Source: a virus
Taxonomy: Duplodnaviria > Heunggongvirae > Uroviricota > Caudoviricetes
Strand: one strand, 5' to 3'
Virus record (IMG/VR): IMGVR_UViG_2737471853_000012
Coordinates: 1-21,314 of that record
DNA length: 21,314 bases
Shown: positions 2,820-18,480 of the stretch, one piece after another
How the letters are laid out: the number at the start of each line of letters is the position of its first letter
Position numbering within the stretch: the first letter of the stretch is position 1
Notes under the pieces: generated by a model
The model's input: only the letters and a program-made list of their open reading frames with translations
Database searches by the model: none
Told to the model about the DNA's origin: nothing
Position numbers and translations under genes: made by a program

Positions 2820-3881
2820 TTATGCTTTTGTTATTACGCCGATCGCCAGCGCTCGATTCATAAACCGGAATAGCAGCTCCAGCTGGGTACCGTGTTTTTT
2901 CTCGAACGCTGCAACATCAGCATGTAATTTGTCGTGACACTCTCTGCACAGAGGGATCACAAACAAATCGTGGGCTTTAGTGGCGGTACCGCCCATGCCG
3001 TGACCAATGACATGGTGTGGATCATCCGCTGGCCGCCGGCAACCTTCACAGGGCTGGGTTTTAACCCACCGGGTATAGTCCTCATTCACCCACCTGCGGT
3101 GTTTTGGGCGCAACATGTAGGATTCAGGGGATTCAGGATCCGCATGCAGAGCCAGAACCTTTGGCTGTTCATAGGCTACTTCCTGATTTGCTCCATGCTT
3201 TAATTTCGCAGCCGTGACCGCAGGGGTGACCTTCTTCTGCAAAATTCTTTTTGCCGGGGGCATCGGCACAATGTCACTTTCTCGATATACGGATAAAAAC
3301 GGCTCATCAGGTAAGCGAAGCGCATGCTGGGCCATCCTTTCCGTGATTGCATCAGCAATGCCTGAATAAACGGCCCACCAGCACAACTCACCGAGGGATA
3401 GTTCACGCTCGTTGTTGTAGCCAAGCGAAGACAGGATGGAACTGATCAGCCAGTTAATGAGATTACGCCGGGCCAGTTCTGCCAGCGCCGCGGTGGTTTG
3501 CTCGCGCAGCTGGTTATCGCAATGCCAACAGAGCATCATTGATCCAGGGGGATGTCGCATCGTTACCAGCTCATGATGGTGATAATCAGTGTGCGGGTAC
3601 TGGCATTCCTTCACGTTACGCTCTAACCAGGATTCCAGCGCGGTCAAACCGCCTGCTGCACGGATAACTCTCTCGTCGGTGAAAAATCCCTCGAGGGACT
3701 TATCTTCTGCCAGCGGCTGCCTGGCATCAGGGACGAGCCCCGACGGAAGCCCGGCCATGCTTTTCGGCTGAGGCTCCACCAGCACACGCCCCTGTTGAAA
3801 CAGAGACATCAGTTCGCTACCCGGCTTTAACACCACAAGCCCAAGGCGCGGAACAGTCTCGGCAGTAAACAGTCCTCTCAC
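2820..3881 (-). CDS. DUF968 (YdfU-like) lambdoid protein with C-terminal HNH-like Cys/His motif
   Basis: 353-aa ORF; C-terminus CEGCRRPADDPHHVIGHGMGGTATKAHDLFVIPLCRECHDKLH resembles YdfU/NinG-type zinc-binding HNH-like region; GTG start overlapping upstream stop. Confidence 0.6.
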   Translation of the reverse strand: MRGLFTAETVPRLGLVVLKPGSELMSLFQQGRVLVEPQPKSMAGLPSGLVPDARQPLAEDKSLEGFFTDERVIRAAGGLTALESWLERNVKECQYPHTDYHHHELVTMRHPPGSMMLCWHCDNQLREQTTAALAELARRNLINWLISSILSSLGYNNERELSLGELCWWAVYSGIADAITERMAQHALRLPDEPFLSVYRESDIVPMPPAKRILQKKVTPAVTAAKLKHGANQEVAYEQPKVLALHADPESPESYMLRPKHRRWVNEDYTRWVKTQPCEGCRRPADDPHHVIGHGMGGTATKAHDLFVIPLCRECHDKLHADVAAFEKKHGTQLELLFRFMNRALAIGVITKA

Positions 3882-11383: not shown

Positions 11384-11452
11384 ACAATACCACAAGTATT
11401 AAACATTGCAATACCGCGAGTATTTTTAAAATAAGAACATTGGTATTACTAT
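11384..11452. promoter_or_regulatory. OR operator region with divergent PR and PRM promoters
   Basis: Two 15-bp palindromes AATACCACAAGTATT (11386-11400) and AATACCGCGAGTATT (11410-11424), plus a GGTATT half-site near 11442. Candidate PR on minus strand: -35 TTGCAA (11406-11411), -10 TATTGT (complement of 11384-11389). Candidate PRM -10 TACTAT (11447-11452) places the start at or near the cI ATG (leaderless). Confidence 0.6.
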
Positions 11453-11458
11453 TTGAAA

Positions 11459-12169
11459 ATGGAAAAGAAAAAGACACTGACATCGGCTCAGATCGCTGAC
11501 GCAGAAAGGCTGAAAGCCCTCTATGAAGCCAAGAAAAAAGAGCTTGGGATAACACAGCAATCAATAGCTGACATGCTAGACATATCTCAGGGGGGCGTTG
11601 GGCATTACTTGAATGGCAGGAATGCCCTTAATGCTGCCGTGGCTGCTGTTTTTGCCAGAGCCCTCCAGGTGGATGTCTCTGATTTTAGCCCCAGCCTTGC
11701 GAAAGAAATATCTGCAATGAGTGCTTCCGCTACATCGAATGCCAAGTATGCAGGCCAGTACACCCCAGGCATTAAATACCCTGTATTAAGCAAGATTCAG
11801 GCTGGGCATTGGTCGGAAGCGTGCGAGCCGTATGCACTTAAAGATATCGATCTATGGCTAGAATCAGACGCTCACATCCAGGGGGATGCGTTCTGGTTGT
11901 TGGTCGAGGGGGAATCCATGACTGCCCCGGTCGGGCTCAGCATACCAGAGGGTACCTACGTTTTGTTTGATACCGGCCGAGAGCCAGTAAATGGCAGCCT
12001 TGTGATCGCAAAGCTATCCGAATCAAACGAAGCGACATTCAAAAAGCTGATTATTGATGGGGGCCAGAAGTACCTGAAGGGCTTAAACCCTCAATGGCCA
12101 TTGGTTCCCATCAATGGGAATTGCCGGATCATTGGTGTGGCTGTAGAAACTAAGTTGAGACTTGTGTGA
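11459..12169 (+). CDS. cI: CI repressor (N-terminal HTH, C-terminal S24 LexA-like autocleavage domain)
   Basis: HTH segment QQSIADMLDISQGGVGHYLNGRN and S24-like C-terminus with GESMTAP and FKKL motifs; ATG at 11459 preferred over the TTG at 11453. Confidence 0.85.
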   Translation: MEKKKTLTSAQIADAERLKALYEAKKKELGITQQSIADMLDISQGGVGHYLNGRNALNAAVAAVFARALQVDVSDFSPSLAKEISAMSASATSNAKYAGQYTPGIKYPVLSKIQAGHWSEACEPYALKDIDLWLESDAHIQGDAFWLLVEGESMTAPVGLSIPEGTYVLFDTGREPVNGSLVIAKLSESNEATFKKLIIDGGQKYLKGLNPQWPLVPINGNCRIIGVAVETKLRLV

Positions 12170-12270: not shown

Positions 12271-13035
12271 GTGATCAGAATAGGAAGGTTACTACCTGGC
12301 GGCATTGCAATTGACGAAGGGCAACATCACCCGATAAAGGGCGTTGCTCTTTTGATAAAAGAAAATAGCGAACCAGAAGAGATTGTTGTTTTTGCAAAAG
12401 AAATATCTTCTAGGAGCATTTCTATAGAAATAACCTGCGCAGCCTTGGGAAGAGCTCTATCCCTGCCTATACCCGAGCCAGTACTACTGTTTGACAGCTC
12501 AAACAAAGCATTTTTTGGTAGTGTTGATGCTACCTATCCGAGTTTCATGAAGTATGTTTCTAACTCTTCAGATCAGGCCGTTTCTGATGCTTTGGCATCA
12601 TGGCCGTTATTGAAAAAAGCTAGCTATTTTGATGAGTGGATTGCGATGGATGACCGTCACAACGGAAATTTGCTTTTCAATGGTGATGGTTTCTTCCTGA
12701 TAGACCATGAATCGGCAATTCCCCAAGGTCTTGCCCCTGACCTTTTCGGGATAGATTATTACTCCAATCAATTGCTGCAGGTAGCAACTTACATACTCGA
12801 TAGAAGTAATGATATAGCCGTTCAGATGATGGCAAATGAGGCGAGAGCTTGGACCATGTCTTGCAAGAGTAACACCCTAACGCTATTAGATGGAGAGATA
12901 TCCGAAACAGTTCAAGGTAAAGAGAAAAATCAAATAATGTCTTTCCTTTCATCTAGAATTGAGTTACTAGGAGACATTCTTTATGATCAAATCAAGCCCC
13001 AACAAACACAGATGATATACGATGCTAAATCTTGA
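12271..13035 (+). CDS. HipA_C-like / kinase-fold protein in the cI (PRM) operon
   Basis: 254-aa ORF from GTG 12271 (RBS AGAGG 7 nt upstream; no in-frame ATG until residue 92). Catalytic-loop-like MDDRHNGNLLFNGDGFFLIDHESA matches the D-x-H-x-x-N ... D pattern of HipA_C/aminoglycoside-phosphotransferase-type kinases; AT-rich compared with cI. Confidence 0.6.
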   Translation: MIRIGRLLPGGIAIDEGQHHPIKGVALLIKENSEPEEIVVFAKEISSRSISIEITCAALGRALSLPIPEPVLLFDSSNKAFFGSVDATYPSFMKYVSNSSDQAVSDALASWPLLKKASYFDEWIAMDDRHNGNLLFNGDGFFLIDHESAIPQGLAPDLFGIDYYSNQLLQVATYILDRSNDIAVQMMANEARAWTMSCKSNTLTLLDGEISETVQGKEKNQIMSFLSSRIELLGDILYDQIKPQQTQMIYDAKS

Positions 13036-13903
13036 TCAGCTTCTTAAGTCAGCTCCTGCTATGCCTGCAACATCAGGGCGCTGGGCATCTGTTTATCTTG
13101 AACCAATGATCGGCTCAGGAGAGCGGCTCACGGTAGCAGTTGCCACGATAACATCATCTGGTGAAATTTTAGTTAAGCCGGCAATCAGAAAAGAAGTTAT
13201 AGAAGCTATGTATGGCTTCAAAGCACCAGCATTTATCAATGTGGTTGATCTGATTTTGTCGAGTTTGAAGTTGCATCTGGCTGCTAAGGGGGATTTCGTA
13301 TCATGGCATCCTCCAGTTACAGGCGTCACTATAAGCGCCGTAAGGAATGCTGCGTCATCAAGCCCTGTTGGCATACTCCGCCAAGCGGTATCATTGTCAT
13401 CGAGTTTGTCATCACTCCTTGAGGCTGAAGAAGATTCCGATGGGTTGCCAGCTAAGCAATCAAGAACTAAAGACAGGTGGCCAATTCAAATCTTTGATGC
13501 GGTTATCAGCGCTGACGGACGCAGGGATATTTTTTTCAATAGAAGCTTCACCTTTAGTGATGGACACAGACCGGCTAAAATTTTCTATCTAAGCGATCAT
13601 GCAGCTATCAACACCGGAAAACTGTTACCCCACAACTTGAATGAGCAGGTTAAGGATGGAAAAGCAAAAATATCTGACTTATCAATGATAAAAAGGCAAG
13701 GCGATATTTTTCCAAGAGAAACTCATCAAATGATTATCTACAAACCGGAAGATGATAGCCCTGCATACAATGATAGGCACATAGCATCAATAAATAGTGC
13801 GTACCTTTCTTTACAGGACTTGGCTAACACCTACGATGTATCAATCACTTCTGTAAGCACTGCCGAGCATGCAGCAAGGTTAATATTGCAAACTGCAGCA
13901 TAA
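13022..13903 (+). CDS. Hypothetical protein, partner of the kinase-fold protein
   Basis: 293-aa ORF whose ATG overlaps the last 14 nt of the upstream gene (translational coupling); Ser-rich middle segment; no motif recognised. Confidence 0.6.
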   Translation: MLNLDQLLKSAPAMPATSGRWASVYLEPMIGSGERLTVAVATITSSGEILVKPAIRKEVIEAMYGFKAPAFINVVDLILSSLKLHLAAKGDFVSWHPPVTGVTISAVRNAASSSPVGILRQAVSLSSSLSSLLEAEEDSDGLPAKQSRTKDRWPIQIFDAVISADGRRDIFFNRSFTFSDGHRPAKIFYLSDHAAINTGKLLPHNLNEQVKDGKAKISDLSMIKRQGDIFPRETHQMIIYKPEDDSPAYNDRHIASINSAYLSLQDLANTYDVSITSVSTAEHAARLILQTAA

Positions 13904-13910
13904 CTTTTGA

Positions 13911-13933
13911 TCCGGCCACCGCGCCGGGTTTTT
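13911..13933 (+). terminator. Intrinsic terminator closing the cI operon
   Basis: CCGGC (13912-13916) pairs with GCCGG (13923-13927) across a 6-nt loop, followed by TTTTT (13929-13933); 8 nt after the stop of the 293-aa gene. Confidence 0.5.
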
Positions 13934-13939
13934 ACTGCC

Positions 13940-14143
13940 CTACTCTTCCCTCAGCATCAGCACGTCCAGCGCCAACTCCACAGCCAGATCGACCTGGTCT
14001 TCCTGCCACAACACCTGAATCATCTCTATCAGCGCCTCTCTTGAGGGCTCGCGCTTCTCAACCAGCAGTTGCATAACCGCTATCCCGATGACCTGCGCTA
14101 TCTGCGGGTGCATTTCTGCGAAAAACTCATCCTCATTTGACAT
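13940..14143 (-). CDS. Small acidic hypothetical protein
   Basis: 67-aa ORF convergent on the cI operon, with RBS AAGGGGTG upstream of ATG 14141-14143; rich in Glu/Asp; lies between the module terminator and OL. Confidence 0.5.
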   Translation of the reverse strand: MSNEDEFFAEMHPQIAQVIGIAVMQLLVEKREPSREALIEMIQVLWQEDQVDLAVELALDVLMLREE

Positions 14144-14243
14144 GCCAACACCCCTTTATGATGTTTTTTTGAGCATAACAGCACTTTTTACAAAAATAAA
14201 TTAACTTTAAAATCATACCTTTAGTATTTTTATTAAACATAAT

Positions 14244-14285
14244 AATACTGGCGGTATTGATATAAAATAATACCAGGAGTATTAT
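14244..14285 (+). promoter_or_regulatory. OL operator pair overlapping the PL promoter
   Basis: Palindromes AATACTGGCGGTATT (14244-14258) and AATACCAGGAGTATT (14269-14283) share the AATAC-N5-GTATT pattern of the OR sites; -35 TTGATA (14257-14262), 17-bp spacer, -10 TATTAT (14280-14285), reading rightward. Confidence 0.65.
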
Positions 14286-14364
14286 CATCTCATCCAAACA
14301 ACACCGGCAACGCCGGGGTGAAGTCAAAACGTCCCGTTAGCCGCGATAAGGCAAAGGTGAAGAG

Positions 14365-14472
14365 ATGATCCGAGAACATGAGGTTCCTGCGTGGAACAGA
14401 TTCAAGGTGAAGGTGGCTCTGTTGTTGGCTTTGGTCGCATTCGTAAGCGTTCAGTGCTGGGGTGCGGTATGA
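14365..14472 (+). CDS. Small hydrophobic peptide (35 aa), first ORF of the PL operon
   Basis: Hand-translated MIREHEVPAWNRFKVKVALLLALVAFVSVQCWGAV; RBS AAAGGTGAAGAG before the ATG; stop overlaps next start (ATGA). Below the ORF-track size cut-off. Confidence 0.3.
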   Translation: MIREHEVPAWNRFKVKVALLLALVAFVSVQCWGAV

Positions 14473-14579
14473 GCAGAAACGGCATTCGCTCACTGGTTAT
14501 CGCGCTGGCCATTGGTGTGGTTTTCTGGGCTGGCCTGGCTGTCGAAATTATGCATTTCACGGGGGTGTTCAATGGTTAG
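14469..14579 (+). CDS. Small membrane peptide (36 aa)
   Basis: MSRNGIRSLVIALAIGVVFWAGLAVEIMHFTGVFNG; single TM helix; coupled to the upstream peptide. The alternative is a 62-aa ORF from GTG 14391 in the same frame. Confidence 0.35.
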   Translation: MSRNGIRSLVIALAIGVVFWAGLAVEIMHFTGVFNG

Positions 14580-14778
14580 TCATCATTACGGGACACAGAC
14601 TGTTAACCGCGGCGCCGTTCTCCCAGGGATGCTCGTTAAGCATCGGGAAAGCACCTGGACAGCATCAGCAAATAAACGCGGCCGCCTGTATCTGCATCGT
14701 GGGATTGAGCGGACTTACACAACCGACTTGCTGGTTGAAGTTTATCTGAACGGGTTGGGGCATGGACTCAGCCACTAG
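14572..14778 (+). CDS. Small early protein, possibly Kil-like (host-killing / division-inhibitor position as in Rac kilR)
   Basis: 68-aa product from ATG 14572 (MVSHHYGTQTVNRGAVLPGMLVKHRESTWTASANKRGRLYLHRG...), RBS GGGGGTG; lies just upstream of a zinc-ribbon gene and recE-like gene, as kilR does in Rac. KilR similarity is from uncertain recollection. Confidence 0.35.
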   Translation: MVSHHYGTQTVNRGAVLPGMLVKHRESTWTASANKRGRLYLHRGIERTYTTDLLVEVYLNGLGHGLSH

Positions 14779-14789
14779 CGGAGGATGTC

Positions 14790-14951
14790 ATGTTAGACAA
14801 GAAATGCGGATATTGCGGCAAGCCGGTTAAAACGGAGGAAGTAATCAAGAGCACCCTTCTCTATCGCAACGGCTCACAGCTGGCGCGCAAAGAAAAAGAG
14901 TATTGCTCCAAACGTTGCGCTTCGCACGACCAGATGGCTCACGAAGGCTAA
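14790..14951 (+). CDS. Small zinc-ribbon protein (53 aa, YdaE-like position)
   Basis: Hand-translated MLDKKCGYCGKPVKTEEVIKSTLLYRNGSQLARKEKEYCSKRCASHDQMAHEG with C-x2-C ... C-x3-C pattern; RBS GGAGG 5 nt upstream. Below the ORF-track size cut-off. Confidence 0.45.
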   Translation: MLDKKCGYCGKPVKTEEVIKSTLLYRNGSQLARKEKEYCSKRCASHDQMAHEG

Positions 14952-15090
14952 CGTAAAACCCGCGCAAGGCGGGATCTACGTCCGGTGGTACCGACCAAAG
15001 TTACACCGGAAACAACATTAAAACCAAAGTTAACCCAATGGGCGCTATCAATGGTCCGGGGATTCTAACACCCAAAAATGAGGATCTCAC

Positions 15091-18000
15091 ATGGAATTCT
15101 TTAATGTGGTTAAAGCCACTCAGAAATCCGGAAAGCAAGATGCAGTGGTCTGGTTCACTGCTAAAACCGAGGCTCGCGCCAATCTGATGCTGGATGTTGC
15201 GCTGGAAGATGCAGGTATCGAAACAGGTCGGGGTAAGGACTACGCCAAACCGATTCGCACTGATTTCCCAGTTGTCGACGGCCTGCCGAAAGAAGGTGAA
15301 GTTGATTTTACCTGGTGTGATCGCTACGAGCTTCAGGACGATGGGCGCACCTGGCTGCCAAAAGCCGCTGGTGTGTCTACTGGTTCCGTTGACGCCCCCT
15401 ACACACCTACTCCGACCGTAATCGTTGAAGATGCGACTGCGTCCGAAATTGTCCCGGTTGAAAACCGTACTCCAGCGGTCCGCTTTGCCGTCCATCTGAT
15501 GAACGATAAATACCAAACCCACGTCACTAAAGAGCAGCAGTTGGCTGCCAGCGAAATGTCACTAGATGAAGGCAATACATATCTCCATAGCCTGCTTGTG
15601 GCAAGGAACGATGTGCCCGCGACCGCCAAACTCAGCCTGAATGCTGAGTGGAAAATGATTCGGGCGGTTAAGGACATTTTCACACCAGACGAAGAGCACG
15701 AACCAAGATTGATCGCTGCATTCATGTCTGACTGGGTGAACACCGATGCCGGTGACCGCAATCAACTGGTAGAAGACTGGCGCAGTGGTAAGTTGCAGTT
15801 GCTCAAAACTGAAACCAGCAACGCTGCTGACGTTACAACGGGTCAAGATCTCACTGTTGAGGACGGTATCCAGACCGACGAGAACGGCCGGGCAGAAGGT
15901 GGCGTCGTTGATGGTGAAGTCGATACCGAAGAGCAATCCCAGCAGACACAGCAACCGAACCTGATCGTTGTTGCCACCCTGCCATTCCGCCAGCGCGTAC
16001 TGGCTCAGTTCATCGGTGATGGTGAATATCTCTATCACATCGACGCAGGGCAGAAAAATGAGATTGTCCGCCTTGAGATGGACACCGATGACGCGTACGT
16101 CCAGAACCTGCTGCTGGCAGCTGAGAATGTGGAAGCATTCAAAAAAGCCATTGAGCACGATATTCATAAAGTCGTGAATGCCGTTAAGAAAGTCTTCCCT
16201 GTCGATGGAAAAATCCCTGAACTCGCAACCTTAATCCAGTTTTTGAAATTGTGGTTCGCTACAGATCACATCGACCGCGGTATCCTCGTTCGCGAATGGG
16301 CCGCCGGTAATCGCATCAGTAGTGTGCAGCGTACTGATTCCGGCACTAATGCCGACGGCGGTTACGTCACTGACCGTGGACCTGACGCACACCACACACT
16401 GGACACTCTCGATTTAGAGATTGCGTGTGCCCTTCTGCCTATGGACTTCAACCACTTCGAGATCCCGGGCAGCATTCTTCGTCGCGCTAAAGAAATCGTG
16501 ACCAAAAAAGAAGAACCATGGAAATCATGGAGCAACATCCTGCGCAATCAGCCAGGCGTTCTGGGTGTTAACCGCACGGCTATTTTTAACCTGGTACGTA
16601 TCGCACCGGAAAATATTCATTTAACTCCTGTCGCTCACCTGGAATTTGTTAACCAGACCATGACAGCCGCGTTCAATTCCGCGGTCGAGTTATTGCCGTT
16701 GCATGAGACTGAACCCGCAGCACAGGAAATTCCCCAACCTGAAGGTAAGGAGTCTCCGCGCAAATCCTTCTGCACTCACGAAGAGAACCTGCAACGCGTG
16801 CGTGAAGAAGGAGCACGCCGCCGCGCAGAGGAAGCGGCAGCACAACCGCAGAAAGTCGAACAAGAACTGGTTAAAAATGTCGGCAACGGAATATTCGACG
16901 TTACGGCTTTGCTGCAGAACTCAGCAACTCATGGCACGAAAAAGGCTACGGAGACCACCAGCAATGTGCAGGTTCAAGAAACTGTCAGTGATGAAAAACA
17001 AGCTGGTGATGAAGTACAGCCAGGCGAAAGCAGTCTGGAGTCTGGTGAAGAGTCAGATACCAGCCAGAAGGACGATGTAGACCAGAATACGGATTCTGTC
17101 GCCAAAAATAGCGATTCTGTAAGCCAAACCGAACCAGTTGCAGCACAAACCGAGCCAGAAGCGCAATCTGACGAACCAGCTGTTGTTTATCCCGCTTATT
17201 TCGAGCCAGGCCGCTATGAAGGGCTGCCAAACGAGGTTTACCACGCCGCCAACGGCATCAGCTCAACCCAGGTGAAAGATGCGCGCGTTTCGCTGATGTA
17301 CTTCAATGCGCGCCACGTAGAGAAAACCATCGTCAAAGAGCGCTCAGCGGTGCTGGACATGGGCAACTTGGTGCATGCGCTGGCGTTGCAGCCTGAACTA
17401 CTGGACGCAGAATTCAGCGTTGAACCGGTGATCCCTGAAGGCGCATTCACAACGGCCGCGACCCTGCGCGCCTTTATCGATGAGCACAATGCCAGCCTGC
17501 CGGCGCTGCTGTCTGCCGACGACATCAAGGTGTTACTGGAAGAGTACAACGCCACCCTGCCGCCGCAGGTTCCGCTTGGCGCTAACCTGGAAGAAACGGC
17601 ACAGAACTATATGGCGCTGCCAGCTGACTTCCAGCGTATTGATGGTGACCAGAAGCAGACGGCGACGGCAATGAAGGCATGCATTAAAGAGTACAACGCC
17701 ACCCTGCCGCCGCCGGTTAAAACCAGCGGCAGCCGTGACGCGCTGCTGGAGCAGTTGGCAATCATCAACCCTGACCTTGTGGCTCAGGAAGCACAGAAAC
17801 CGGCACCACTGAAAGTGTCCGGTACCAAAGCAGACATGATCCAGGCCGTGAAGGCAGTCAAACCAGATGCCGTATTTGCCGACGAACTGCTGGATGCCTG
17901 GCGCGATAACCCGGAAGGAAAAGTGCTGGTCACCCGCCAGCAGCTGAGCACCGCGCTGAATATTCAAAAAGCGCTTCTGGCACACCCGACCGCCGGCATG

Positions 18001-18480
18001 CTGCTGACCCACCCTAGCCGAGCCGTTGAGGTGAGCTACTTTGGTTTTGACGAGGAGACGGGCTTGGAAGTTCGTGTGCGCCCTGACCTTGAGATCGACC
18101 TGGATGGCGTGCGTATAGGTGCAGACCTGAAAACCATCAGCATGTGGAATGTTAAGCAGGAAAGCCTGCGCGCCAGGCTACACCGGGAAATTATTGAACG
18201 TGATTATCACCTGAGCGCGGCTATGTACTGCGAAACCGCAGCGCTGGATCAGTTCTTCTGGATTTTCGTCAACAAAGACGAGAACTACCACTGGATCGCC
18301 ATCATCGAGGCATCCGCTGAACTACTGGAGCTGGGTATGCTCGAGTACCGCAAAGCGATGCGCAATATCGCAACCGGATTCGACACAGGTGAATGGCCAG
18401 CGCCAATCACTGCTGACTACACCGACGAACTGAACGACTTCGACCTGCGCCGCCTTGAAGCGCTGCGTACTCAGGCATAA
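15091..18480 (+). CDS. RecE-like exodeoxyribonuclease VIII (large N-terminal region of unknown function plus C-terminal nuclease domain)
   Basis: 1129-aa ORF immediately upstream of a RecT-family gene, as in the Rac recET module; C-terminal region carries acidic residues consistent with a PD-(D/E)xK-type nuclease (DLEIDLDGVRIGADLK); contains an acidic low-complexity linker and a repeated EYNATLPP motif. Confidence 0.6.
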   Translation: MEFFNVVKATQKSGKQDAVVWFTAKTEARANLMLDVALEDAGIETGRGKDYAKPIRTDFPVVDGLPKEGEVDFTWCDRYELQDDGRTWLPKAAGVSTGSVDAPYTPTPTVIVEDATASEIVPVENRTPAVRFAVHLMNDKYQTHVTKEQQLAASEMSLDEGNTYLHSLLVARNDVPATAKLSLNAEWKMIRAVKDIFTPDEEHEPRLIAAFMSDWVNTDAGDRNQLVEDWRSGKLQLLKTETSNAADVTTGQDLTVEDGIQTDENGRAEGGVVDGEVDTEEQSQQTQQPNLIVVATLPFRQRVLAQFIGDGEYLYHIDAGQKNEIVRLEMDTDDAYVQNLLLAAENVEAFKKAIEHDIHKVVNAVKKVFPVDGKIPELATLIQFLKLWFATDHIDRGILVREWAAGNRISSVQRTDSGTNADGGYVTDRGPDAHHTLDTLDLEIACALLPMDFNHFEIPGSILRRAKEIVTKKEEPWKSWSNILRNQPGVLGVNRTAIFNLVRIAPENIHLTPVAHLEFVNQTMTAAFNSAVELLPLHETEPAAQEIPQPEGKESPRKSFCTHEENLQRVREEGARRRAEEAAAQPQKVEQELVKNVGNGIFDVTALLQNSATHGTKKATETTSNVQVQETVSDEKQAGDEVQPGESSLESGEESDTSQKDDVDQNTDSVAKNSDSVSQTEPVAAQTEPEAQSDEPAVVYPAYFEPGRYEGLPNEVYHAANGISSTQVKDARVSLMYFNARHVEKTIVKERSAVLDMGNLVHALALQPELLDAEFSVEPVIPEGAFTTAATLRAFIDEHNASLPALLSADDIKVLLEEYNATLPPQVPLGANLEETAQNYMALPADFQRIDGDQKQTATAMKACIKEYNATLPPPVKTSGSRDALLEQLAIINPDLVAQEAQKPAPLKVSGTKADMIQAVKAVKPDAVFADELLDAWRDNPEGKVLVTRQQLSTALNIQKALLAHPTAGMLLTHPSRAVEVSYFGFDEETGLEVRVRPDLEIDLDGVRIGADLKTISMWNVKQESLRARLHREIIERDYHLSAAMYCETAALDQFFWIFVNKDENYHWIAIIEASAELLELGMLEYRKAMRNIATGFDTGEWPAPITADYTDELNDFDLRRLEALRTQA

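What the first reader, a model, noticed from the sequence alone, without database searches (positions are those of the whole stretch)
13940..14143. Small acidic ORF convergent on the cI-module operon, wedged between its terminator and OL
Lambda has no gene between rexB and OL/PL. Here a 67-aa Glu/Asp-rich protein with a good RBS is encoded on the opposite strand, immediately after the module terminator and beside the AT-rich OL region. Its acidity and size are compatible with a DNA-mimic, anti-restriction or antitoxin-like role, or a regulator of the adjacent module, but this is speculative.
Basis: inference. Interest (0 to 1): 0.5.

Follow-up and report, generated by a model that had tools for sequence, protein, structure and literature searches.

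The report
Conserved small acidic prophage gene beside OL
The 67-residue acidic ORF is a real, selectively maintained but uncharacterised phage gene with its own expression signals that sits as a fixed landmark next to the left operator in many Klebsiella, E. coli and Salmonella lambda-like prophages, and it is not tied to the kinase module next to it.

Summary
Window 13940-14143 (-) encodes a 67-aa protein with pI 4.1 and net charge -11, preceded by a Shine-Dalgarno sequence. It lies between the cI-operon terminator and three OL operators.

It is a real gene. It matches phrog_3946 (unknown function) over its full length, and dN/dS is 0.05-0.14. A 67-aa frame is kept in 87 of 94 loci from Klebsiella, E. 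coli and Salmonella P22-like phages.

- The ORF lies next to 44 different cargo sequences, and in one lineage directly next to cI with no cargo.
- The kinase and its 293-aa partner occur in 10 phage loci that lack the ORF.

The ORF travels as a cassette: a predicted extended -10 promoter outside the CI operators, an A-rich leader, a Shine-Dalgarno sequence, the ORF, then the cI-operon terminator hairpin. Cargo sequence varies just past the hairpin, and immunity type varies just upstream of the promoter.

The gene is dispensable, since some Klebsiella phages keep only a 3' remnant. The predicted fold is a generic four-helix bundle. Homology to chromosomal YdhZ/FumD (DUF2767) is weak and unproven.

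The function is unknown. My best guess is a self-transcribed accessory protein that acts by binding another protein. Interest is modest.

The parts
13940..14143 (-). ORF67 coding sequence (67 aa plus stop). Acidic protein predicted to form four helices; member of phrog_3946.
14151..14156 (-). Shine-Dalgarno sequence AAGGGG, 7 nt upstream of the ATG. A purine-rich SD is kept in all allele types although the sequence changes.
14161..14171 (-). Conserved A-rich leader CAAAAAAAC, with the predicted transcription start near 14165.
   Evidence: conservation; the start position is inferred from the -10 spacing
14172..14180 (-). Predicted extended -10 element TGtTATGCT. The TGn plus nAnnnT pattern is kept across the divergent Klebsiella, Salmonella and L010 types as TGGTAAGCT, TGCCATACT, TGCGATACT and TGAGATACT.
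14192..14201 (-). Invariant ATTTATTTTT block. It holds the weak -35-like TTTATT at 14200-14195, 17 nt from the -10. It could instead belong to the distal OL/PL region, because a similar AAAATAAATT is present in a locus without the ORF.
13909..13934 (+). Intrinsic terminator of the cI/cargo operon (8-bp stem plus U5). It is conserved with the ORF across loci and is also present in loci lacking the ORF. It has no U-tract in the ORF67 direction.
14214..14283 (.). OL3, OL2 and OL1 operators (AATACnnnnnGTATT). The OL3 centre is about 56 bp upstream of the predicted ORF67 transcription start, so it lies outside the core promoter.
14257..14285 (+). PL promoter TTGATA-17-TATTAT, divergent from the ORF67 promoter.
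12271..13903 (+). Cargo of this particular prophage: a HipA_2-like kinase-fold gene (12271-13035) plus its 293-aa phrog_21150 partner (13022-13903). This is context only and is not functionally linked to ORF67.

Best explanation
ORF67 is a genuine accessory protein gene that carries its own expression signals.

The cassette has five parts: a sigma-70 extended -10 promoter just outside the CI-bound OL operators, a short A-rich leader, a Shine-Dalgarno sequence, the 67-codon ORF, and the hairpin that terminates the oncoming cI/cargo operon. This cassette is a fixed landmark between two of the most mosaic parts of lambdoid genomes: the cargo slot downstream of cI and the immunity-specific operator region.

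The core promoter is not covered by an operator. I therefore infer that the gene is transcribed in the lysogen as well as early after infection.

The product is a soluble, strongly acidic four-helix protein that cannot bind DNA. It most likely acts in trans by binding another protein, of host or phage origin. It does not act on the neighbouring cargo.

A secondary cis effect is possible. Transcription from this promoter runs head-on into the end of the cI operon. That could back up the terminator in keeping read-through out of the PL operon, which here encodes a Kil-like protein.

Shown: it is a real coding gene under purifying selection, the cassette structure is conserved, it is independent of cargo and immunity type, and it is dispensable.
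Inferred: promoter activity and timing, protein binding as the mode of action, and the insulation effect. The binding partner is unknown.
For: Coding status:
- dN/dS is 0.05-0.07 between the window allele and the Salmonella alleles, where synonymous sites are saturated. It is 0.14 pooled over 68 Klebsiella-type alleles.
- Of the 94 oriented loci, 87 keep a 67-aa frame; 4 have premature stops, 2 read through the stop and 1 is 66 aa.
- The match to phrog_3946 is full length.

Cassette:
- The extended -10 pattern, the CAAAAAAAC leader and the SD are kept, with compensating sequence change, across at least 9 operator types.
- Sequences shared with OR end upstream of the ATTTATTTTT block.
- OL3 is centred about 56 bp upstream of the predicted start.

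Landmark role:
- The hairpin is conserved, and sequences diverge into 44 clusters immediately after it.
- The position is the same in Klebsiella phages with RexAB, ParA-like or IS1 cargo and in Salmonella SPN9CC, S107 and ST104.
- It lies directly beside cI in L008-L010.
- The cI-N interval is described as a hotspot of mosaic diversity in PMC8585504.

Protein:
- The AlphaFold2 model has pLDDT 82 and four helices.
- Net charge is -11 and is about -6 to -11 in divergent phage members by my count from the alignment.
- No helix-turn-helix or other domain was found.

Head-on geometry: the terminator has a U-tract only on the cI-operon strand.
Against: - There is no transcript, transcription-start or proteomic evidence. 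The promoter is a consensus-level prediction with a weak -35 (3 of 6), and the generic scanner did not list it.
- The ATTTATTTTT block may belong to the OL/PL region, because a similar motif is present in L102, which has no ORF.
- CI bound at OL3 or looped OL-OR complexes could still modulate the promoter.
- No partner was identified, and fold searches are uninformative.
- The gene is truncated or absent in viable relatives, so any function is non-essential.
- Four of 94 loci carry premature stop codons.
Confidence: 0.5

Rival explanations
1. Antitoxin, neutraliser or regulator of the adjacent HipA-like kinase module. The acidic protein would bind and silence the kinase or its partner.
For: It lies next to a HipA_2-like gene. 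Many antitoxins are small and acidic (general knowledge).
Against: The two genes dissociate in both directions. ORF67 occurs with 43 other cargo types and with none. The kinase pair is present in only 7 of 94 ORF67 loci. The kinase and its partner occur at 65-69% identity in 10 loci with no ORF67. The orientation is convergent, with a separate promoter. The kinase's constant companion is the overlapping 293-aa phrog_21150 gene.
Confidence: 0.03
2. DNA-mimic or other anti-defence protein, made early on entry to blunt host restriction or another nucleic-acid-targeting defence.
For: pI is 4.1 and net charge -11. The acidity is kept in the divergent phage members but not in the near-neutral chromosomal YdhZ/FumD proteins (residue counts). 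The promoter is independent of N and apparently of CI.
Against: There is no sequence or structural similarity to Ocr, ArdA, Gam, anti-CRISPR or other mimics. GRAVY is +0.12, with many conserved hydrophobic positions, which suggests a packed bundle or a binding interface rather than a phosphate-mimicking surface. The location in the immunity region and the convergent orientation are atypical for known anti-restriction genes.
Confidence: 0.15
3. The element acts mainly in cis. The promoter fires into the 3' end of the cI/cargo operon, giving transcriptional interference, antisense RNA or insulation of PL, and the peptide is incidental.
For: There is no U-tract terminator in the ORF direction, so transcripts may read antisense into the cargo. 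The position at the operon boundary is invariant.
Against: Selection at the protein level is strong while synonymous sites are saturated. This rules out constraint at the nucleotide level alone. The SD, start codon and 67-codon length are conserved.
Confidence: 0.1
4. Phage-borne YdhZ/FumD-like (DUF2767) protein with a metabolic role, such as the fumarase activity reported for E. coli YdhZ.
For: - UniRef names the identical protein 'DUF2767 domain-containing protein'.
- Family members give weak hits to PF10965 (E=0.032) and to NF007630 FumD (E=0.064).
- hhalign gives E=0.009 over the N-terminal half.
- Cross-family HMM scores exceed reversed and shuffled decoys in both directions, with p about 0.01-0.02.
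- The AlphaFold2 helix boundaries match: 3-27, 34-44 and 51-63 against 2-27, 34-46 and 54-66, with an 'EP' loop motif in register.
- The chromosomal paralogue P0157 lies about 630 bp from a true fumD gene.
Against: The window protein itself gives no Pfam or NCBIfam hit. The hhalign probability is only 4.5%. The residues invariant in FumD (C15, R16, K20, R26, H34, R42) are not kept in ORF67. The fumarase assignment of a 69-aa protein comes from one in vitro screen, which I cite from memory and did not read here.
Confidence: 0.07
5. Chance ORF or non-coding spacer.
For: Short ORFs are abundant in this region.
Against: Searches show family membership, conserved length and purifying selection.
Confidence: 0.01

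Closest known systems
PHROG family phrog_3946 (unknown function)
   Same: The profile match is full length: 67 of 67 positions, E=1e-39. Divergent members P0146, P0156 and P0157 also match.
   Different: There is nothing to contrast, because the family has no assigned function, structure or literature (one search found no paper).
YdhZ/FumD, Pfam DUF2767 (PF10965), NCBIfam NF007630
   Same: The size is the same (about 67-71 aa) and it is also restricted to enterobacteria. The predicted helix boundaries match. The N-terminal motif D/E-D/E-E-L/F-Y/F-x-E-M...V-V/I-G and the 'EP' loop are shared. Statistical signals are weak but reciprocal.
   Different: All scores are below the curated cut-offs. 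The phage family is strongly acidic whereas FumD is about neutral. FumD's invariant Cys, Arg, Lys and His residues are not conserved. FumD is a single-copy chromosomal gene, not a prophage immunity-region gene.
Lambdoid 'morons' and cI-distal accessory genes (lambda rexAB, BTP1 bstA, 933W stk)
   Same: It is an accessory, non-essential gene in the cI-N interval, with signals for expression independent of the lytic operons. That interval is a recognised mosaic hotspot (PMC8585504).
   Different: rexAB, bstA and stk are co-oriented with cI and transcribed with it, and they vary between phages. ORF67 is convergent to cI and has its own promoter. It is the conserved element next to the variable slot, and it has no canonical terminator of its own.
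Small acidic DNA-mimic anti-defence proteins (Ocr, ArdA, lambda Gam, several anti-CRISPRs)
   Same: It is small, of phage origin, and has a large net negative charge.
   Different: There is no detectable sequence or fold similarity, and the genomic location is different.
Type II antitoxins of HipA-family kinases (HipB-like)
   Same: It is a small protein encoded next to a HipA-like kinase-fold gene in this window.
   Different: It has no helix-turn-helix, is not co-transcribed with the kinase and does not co-occur with it.

Membership tests
phrog_3946 | Significant full-length match to the family profile | tested here: met
   E=9.9e-40, residues 1-67 on profile positions 1-67 of 67
DUF2767 / YdhZ (FumD) | Score above the Pfam gathering or NCBIfam cut-off | tested here: not met
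   The window protein gives no PF10965 or NF007630 hit at E<=1. The best family members give E=0.032 and E=0.064, 13 bits against a cut-off of 82.
DUF2767 / YdhZ (FumD) | Remote homology by profile-profile comparison and shared fold topology | tested here: inconclusive
   hhalign gives E=0.0089 and probability 4.5%. Cross-HMM scores are 3.7-4.5 bits against -0.1 to -3.1 for decoys. Predicted helix boundaries match. UniRef labels the identical sequence DUF2767.
DUF2767 / YdhZ (FumD) | Fumarate hydratase activity | not testable with these tools
   This needs an enzyme assay.
Antitoxin or regulator of the HipA-like kinase module | Consistent co-occurrence and co-transcription with the toxin gene | tested here: not met
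   7 of 94 ORF67 loci have the kinase. 10 kinase loci lack ORF67. The orientation is convergent.
Antitoxin or regulator of the HipA-like kinase module | DNA-binding (HTH or RHH) domain for autoregulation | tested here: not met
   No domain hit was found. Net charge is -11.
DNA-mimic anti-restriction or anti-defence proteins | Strong net negative charge | tested here: met
   pI is 4.14 and charge -11.4. This is necessary for membership but far from sufficient.
DNA-mimic anti-restriction or anti-defence proteins | Sequence or structural similarity to a known mimic, or a charge pattern mimicking B-DNA | tested here: not met
Moron (autonomous promoter-gene-terminator unit expressed from the prophage) | Own promoter | tested here: inconclusive
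   A conserved extended -10 pattern lies outside the operators. This is a prediction only.
Moron (autonomous promoter-gene-terminator unit expressed from the prophage) | Own intrinsic terminator | tested here: not met
   The hairpin has no U-tract in the ORF direction, and the sequence after the stem varies between loci.
Moron (autonomous promoter-gene-terminator unit expressed from the prophage) | Expression in the lysogen | not testable with these tools
   No transcriptome is available for a carrier strain. The Salmonella prophage transcriptome paper (PMC7067206) covers five prophages and was searched only for the STnc6030 lead; no tblastn match to a BTP1 record was listed, and the other four were not checked.

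The most novel reading that the evidence does not exclude
ORF67 is a general 'gatekeeper' of the cI-distal defence hotspot. In this reading it is a constitutively made acidic protein, helped by its head-on transcription. It would either protect the prophage's own lytic programme from whatever abortive-infection cargo sits next door, or it would be a new class of anti-defence or host-modulating factor derived from the chromosomal YdhZ fold. This would explain why it is kept as the one constant gene beside dozens of interchangeable defence cargos.
Probability: 0.1. Interest if true: 0.6.

Novelty: new member of a known kind. Interest (0 to 1): 0.3.

Why it matters
The interval between cI and PL is a recognised hotspot where lambdoid prophages carry defence and exclusion genes such as rexAB, bstA and stk. 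In a large set of Klebsiella, E. coli and Salmonella prophages, this work finds a conserved, self-contained small gene plus the cI-operon terminator forming the fixed edge of that slot.

This gives a practical anchor. Searching for phrog_3946 or the hairpin and reading the sequence between it and cI yielded 44 distinct cargo sequences in 91 loci.

It also flags a widespread uncharacterised small protein. The exact sequence was seen on hundreds of contigs, and there are 543 clusters of homologues at 90% identity. Its expression and binding partner can be tested directly.

Finally, it removes a tempting but wrong toxin-antitoxin reading of this locus.

Tried and rejected
1. Kinase-antitoxin link: rejected by dissociation in both directions.
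2. Domain searches: Pfam, NCBIfam and PADLOC gave nothing for the window protein. A PDB sequence search with the family profile gave only E of about 1 to Syo1.
4. Rfam: no RNA family in 13500-14900.
5. Literature: there are no papers on phrog_3946, WP_001548448 or DUF2767. STnc6030 of BTP1 turned out to be an antisense RNA in the tailspike region and is unrelated. The ydhZ papers were uninformative on function.
6. Alternative promoter using TATTTT inside the invariant block as the -10, which would put OL3 over the -35 and make it CI-repressible. No immunity type has a -35 scoring above 3 of 6 at 16-18 nt, so the extended -10 model is preferred.
7. The scanner's minus-strand hit, TTTATA-16-TATTAT at 14266-14239 inside OL2, lies in immunity-specific sequence that is not conserved with the ORF.
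8. A search with the chromosomal paralogue P0157 to bridge to FumD found only two sequences.
9. Co-variation of ORF67 alleles with immunity type was checked by eye only. The same 5'UTR/allele class occurs with three operator types, which argues against a CI-specific partner.

Full report
**The observation**

The window carries a lambdoid immunity region in inverted lambda orientation. The order is cII-like and cro-like genes on the minus strand, then cI on the plus strand. PGAP starts cI at 11459, and it has HTH_3 plus Peptidase_S24 domains. Next come a two-gene cargo (12271-13035 and 13022-13903), a hairpin terminator, the ORF in question, OL/PL, and a Rac-like early-left operon. That operon holds a 62-aa ORF, a Kil-like gene (phrog_294), YdaE, RecE and RecT.

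It has 15 acidic and 4 basic residues, pI 4.14 and net charge -11. AAGGGG lies 7 nt before the ATG.

Six copies of AATACnnnnnGTATT define OR (11386-11447) and OL (14214-14283). PL is TTGATA-17-TATTAT at 14257-14285.

The hairpin at 13909-13934 is a canonical intrinsic terminator only on the cI-operon strand. There it has an 8-bp stem and a U5 tail, with z=-2.3. On the ORF strand it has no U-tract and z=-0.8.

The window is identical in this region to a prophage inserted next to kch in E. coli ECCRA-119. There PGAP calls the ORF a hypothetical protein, WP_001548448.1.

**Is it a gene?**

Yes. Four lines of evidence agree.
- It matches phrog_3946 over its whole length at E=1e-39.
- It has 543 clusters of homologues at 90% identity, mostly in Klebsiella.
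- It has only 48 representatives at 50% identity among 1.8 billion proteins, so the family is narrow and enterobacterial.
- In 94 oriented loci I found 74 distinct alleles. The loci were the window, annotated phages, 80 IMG/VR contigs and metagenome contigs. Of these, 87 keep a 67-aa frame; 4 have premature stops, 2 read through the stop and 1 is 66 aa.

Nei-Gojobori estimates give dN/dS of 0.05-0.07 between the window allele and the Salmonella P22-like alleles. Synonymous sites there are saturated (dS above 2) while dN is about 0.16. The pooled value over 68 Klebsiella-type alleles is 0.14. The constraint is therefore on the protein, not on the DNA or RNA.

**Context across relatives**

The gene always sits between OL/PL and the 3' end of the cI transcription unit, convergent to cI. 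What lies between it and cI is not constant:
- RexA/RexB, a ParA-like gene, or IS1 in three Klebsiella phages.
- Unrelated genes in Salmonella phages SPN9CC, S107 and ST104.
- Nothing at all in a 40%-identical lineage, where it abuts cI and an N-peptide gene lies on the other side.

Quantitatively, the 600 bp beyond the hairpin fall into 44 sequence clusters in 91 loci. The window's kinase gene and its partner are present in 7 of 94 loci.

Conversely, a scan for the kinase found 10 further phage loci, 65-69% identical, that carry the kinase and the 293-aa partner but no ORF67 homologue. One of them (L102) has the same kind of terminator followed directly by operators.

The kinase's obligate companion is therefore the overlapping phrog_21150 gene, not ORF67.

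**The conserved cassette**

Listing the upstream sequences of all loci gave 71 distinct versions, and representatives were compared. Immunity-specific operator sequences of at least nine kinds give way to a block common to the Klebsiella, Salmonella and L010-type loci. Sequences shared with each phage's own OR were mapped.

The common block reads ATTTATTTTT, then 11-12 nt, then TGn plus a -10 hexamer, then CAAAAAAAC, a purine-rich SD and the start codon. The hexamer is TATGCT, TAAGCT, CATACT or GATACT. The TG and the A2/T6 positions of the hexamer are kept while other bases change, as expected for a functional extended -10 promoter.

In the window this places the -10 at 14177-14172, the TG at 14180-14179 and a weak -35-like TTTATT at 14200-14195 with a 17-nt spacer. 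The predicted start is near 14165, about 22 nt before the ATG.

OL3 (14214-14228) is then centred near -56. It is outside the core promoter and is not at the -42 position from which CI activates PRM. In this window, OR2 is about 42 bp and OR3 about 19 bp upstream of the cI ATG, which I take as the PRM start if cI is leaderless as in lambda.

An alternative promoter using TATTTT as the -10, which OL3 would repress, has no acceptable -35 in any immunity type.

I therefore infer, without proof, that the gene is transcribed independently of CI. One caveat applies. A similar AAAATAAATT is present next to the operators in L102, which lacks the ORF. The invariant A/T block may therefore belong to the distal OL/PL region rather than to this promoter.

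Downstream, the stop codon is followed in most loci by AAAAACCCGGCGCGGTGGCCGGG, and homology ends right after it. This hairpin is the cI-operon terminator. In the ORF's own direction the bases after the stem vary and are usually not U-rich. ORF67 transcripts may therefore run antisense into the cargo.

In three loci a second small gene (58 aa, phrog_33538) follows on the same strand.

**Dispensability**

Klebsiella phages 2 LV-2017 and ST15-VIM1phi2.1 keep the terminator and only the last ~55 nt of the ORF. This remnant is fused to a different operator region. The gene is therefore accessory.

**The protein**

AlphaFold2 with a 15-sequence alignment gives a confident small bundle, with pLDDT 82 and helices at 3-9, 12-27, 34-44 and 51-63.

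Fold and sequence searches gave no informative match:
- Foldseek against viral models and PDB gives nothing below E=0.2.
- No PDB sequence relative was found.
- No defence-system model matches.

The only named lead is DUF2767/YdhZ (FumD). The supporting signals are:
- UniRef labels the identical sequence 'DUF2767 domain-containing'.
- A family member hits PF10965 at E=0.032.
- The chromosomal paralogue P0157 hits the FumD model at E=0.064. It lies about 630 bp from a true fumD gene.
- hhalign of the two family alignments gives E=0.009 but a probability of only 4.5%.
- Reciprocal HMM scores exceed reversed and shuffled decoys, with p about 0.01-0.02.
- An AlphaFold2 model of FumD has the same helix boundaries, with an 'EP' loop motif in register.

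Against this, the window protein itself scores nothing against either model. FumD's invariant polar residues are not kept.

I rate the homology as plausible but unproven. It carries little functional information.

**Mechanism**

The points shown are:
- It is a selected protein-coding gene.
- It sits in a conserved expression cassette.
- Its position is fixed between two hypervariable segments.
- It is independent of cargo and immunity type.
- It is not essential.

The points inferred are:
- Transcription comes from its own promoter in lysogens and on infection.
- Action is in trans by protein-protein binding. Net charge of -11 and the lack of any DNA-binding motif make DNA binding implausible. 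A conserved hydrophobic face suggests an interface.
- Head-on transcription may reinforce the terminator that shields the PL operon.

Rivals are ranked in the report sections. The DNA-mimic or anti-defence reading remains open at about 0.15. A purely cis role is unlikely given the dN/dS values. The antitoxin reading is refuted.

**Verdict**

The gene belongs to a catalogued but uncharacterised phage family. Its value lies in being a conserved anchor of the cI-distal cargo hotspot and a widespread small protein of unknown function. Interest is modest at 0.3.

Noticed in passing
window 12271-13903 (+): A HipA_2-like kinase-fold gene (PF20613 E=1e-5, below the gathering score; PADLOC PDC-M66A E=2e-6) overlaps a 293-aa phrog_21150 gene by 14 nt. 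The two always travel together. They occur behind cI in several immunity types, and at 65-69% identity in 10 other phage loci. This is a candidate two-gene defence or abortive-infection cargo.
   Followed up: partly
window 14290-18480 (+): The PL operon has no recognisable N gene. It encodes a 62-aa ORF (14391-14579), a Kil-like protein (14572-14778, phrog_294), YdaE (14790-14951) and an 1129-aa RecE-family exonuclease (15091-18480), followed by RecT in the matching E. coli record. This is a Rac-like early-left region.
   Followed up: partly
window 14304-14316: The hairpin CCGGCAACGCCGG lies about 12 nt after the predicted PL start. The same leader (…GATGAG…CCGGCGTTGCCGG on the other strand) is kept in Klebsiella-type loci with different operator types. 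It may be a nut- or put-like or pausing element, and the scanner flags it as terminator-like on the minus strand.
   Followed up: no
L040, L051 and L080, about 30 nt after the ORF67 stop, same strand: A 58-aa helical gene (MRPPITKEEVELLMQDMEMLAEQ…, phrog_33538, unknown function) with a strong AAGGAGG ribosome-binding site follows ORF67 in a few loci. This makes a two-gene unit that replaces the usual hairpin.
   Followed up: partly
L094 ~3047-3105 and L093 ~3027-3080: Klebsiella phages 2 LV-2017 and ST15-VIM1phi2.1 retain only the 3' ~55 nt of ORF67, joined to a different OL region. This is a mosaic junction inside the gene.
   Followed up: yes
L007 5001-6048: A chromosomal, non-prophage-looking homologue (P0157, 43% identity) lies near icd in a Cedecea-like genome. 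It is about 630 bp from a bona fide fumD/ydhZ (DUF2767) gene. This suggests that the phage family and YdhZ are old paralogues.
   Followed up: partly
window 11433-11461: OR3 ends 11 nt before the cI ATG (11459), and there is no Shine-Dalgarno sequence. The PRM transcript is therefore probably leaderless, as in lambda. OR2 lies about 42 bp and OR3 about 19 bp upstream of that start.
   Followed up: no
L001-L092, hairpin after the ORF67 stop; also L102 5645-5668: The tImm-like terminator CCCGGCCACCGCGCCGGGTTTTT is conserved more widely than ORF67 and marks the exact point where cargo sequences diverge. It can serve as a search anchor for the cI-distal hotspot.
   Followed up: partly
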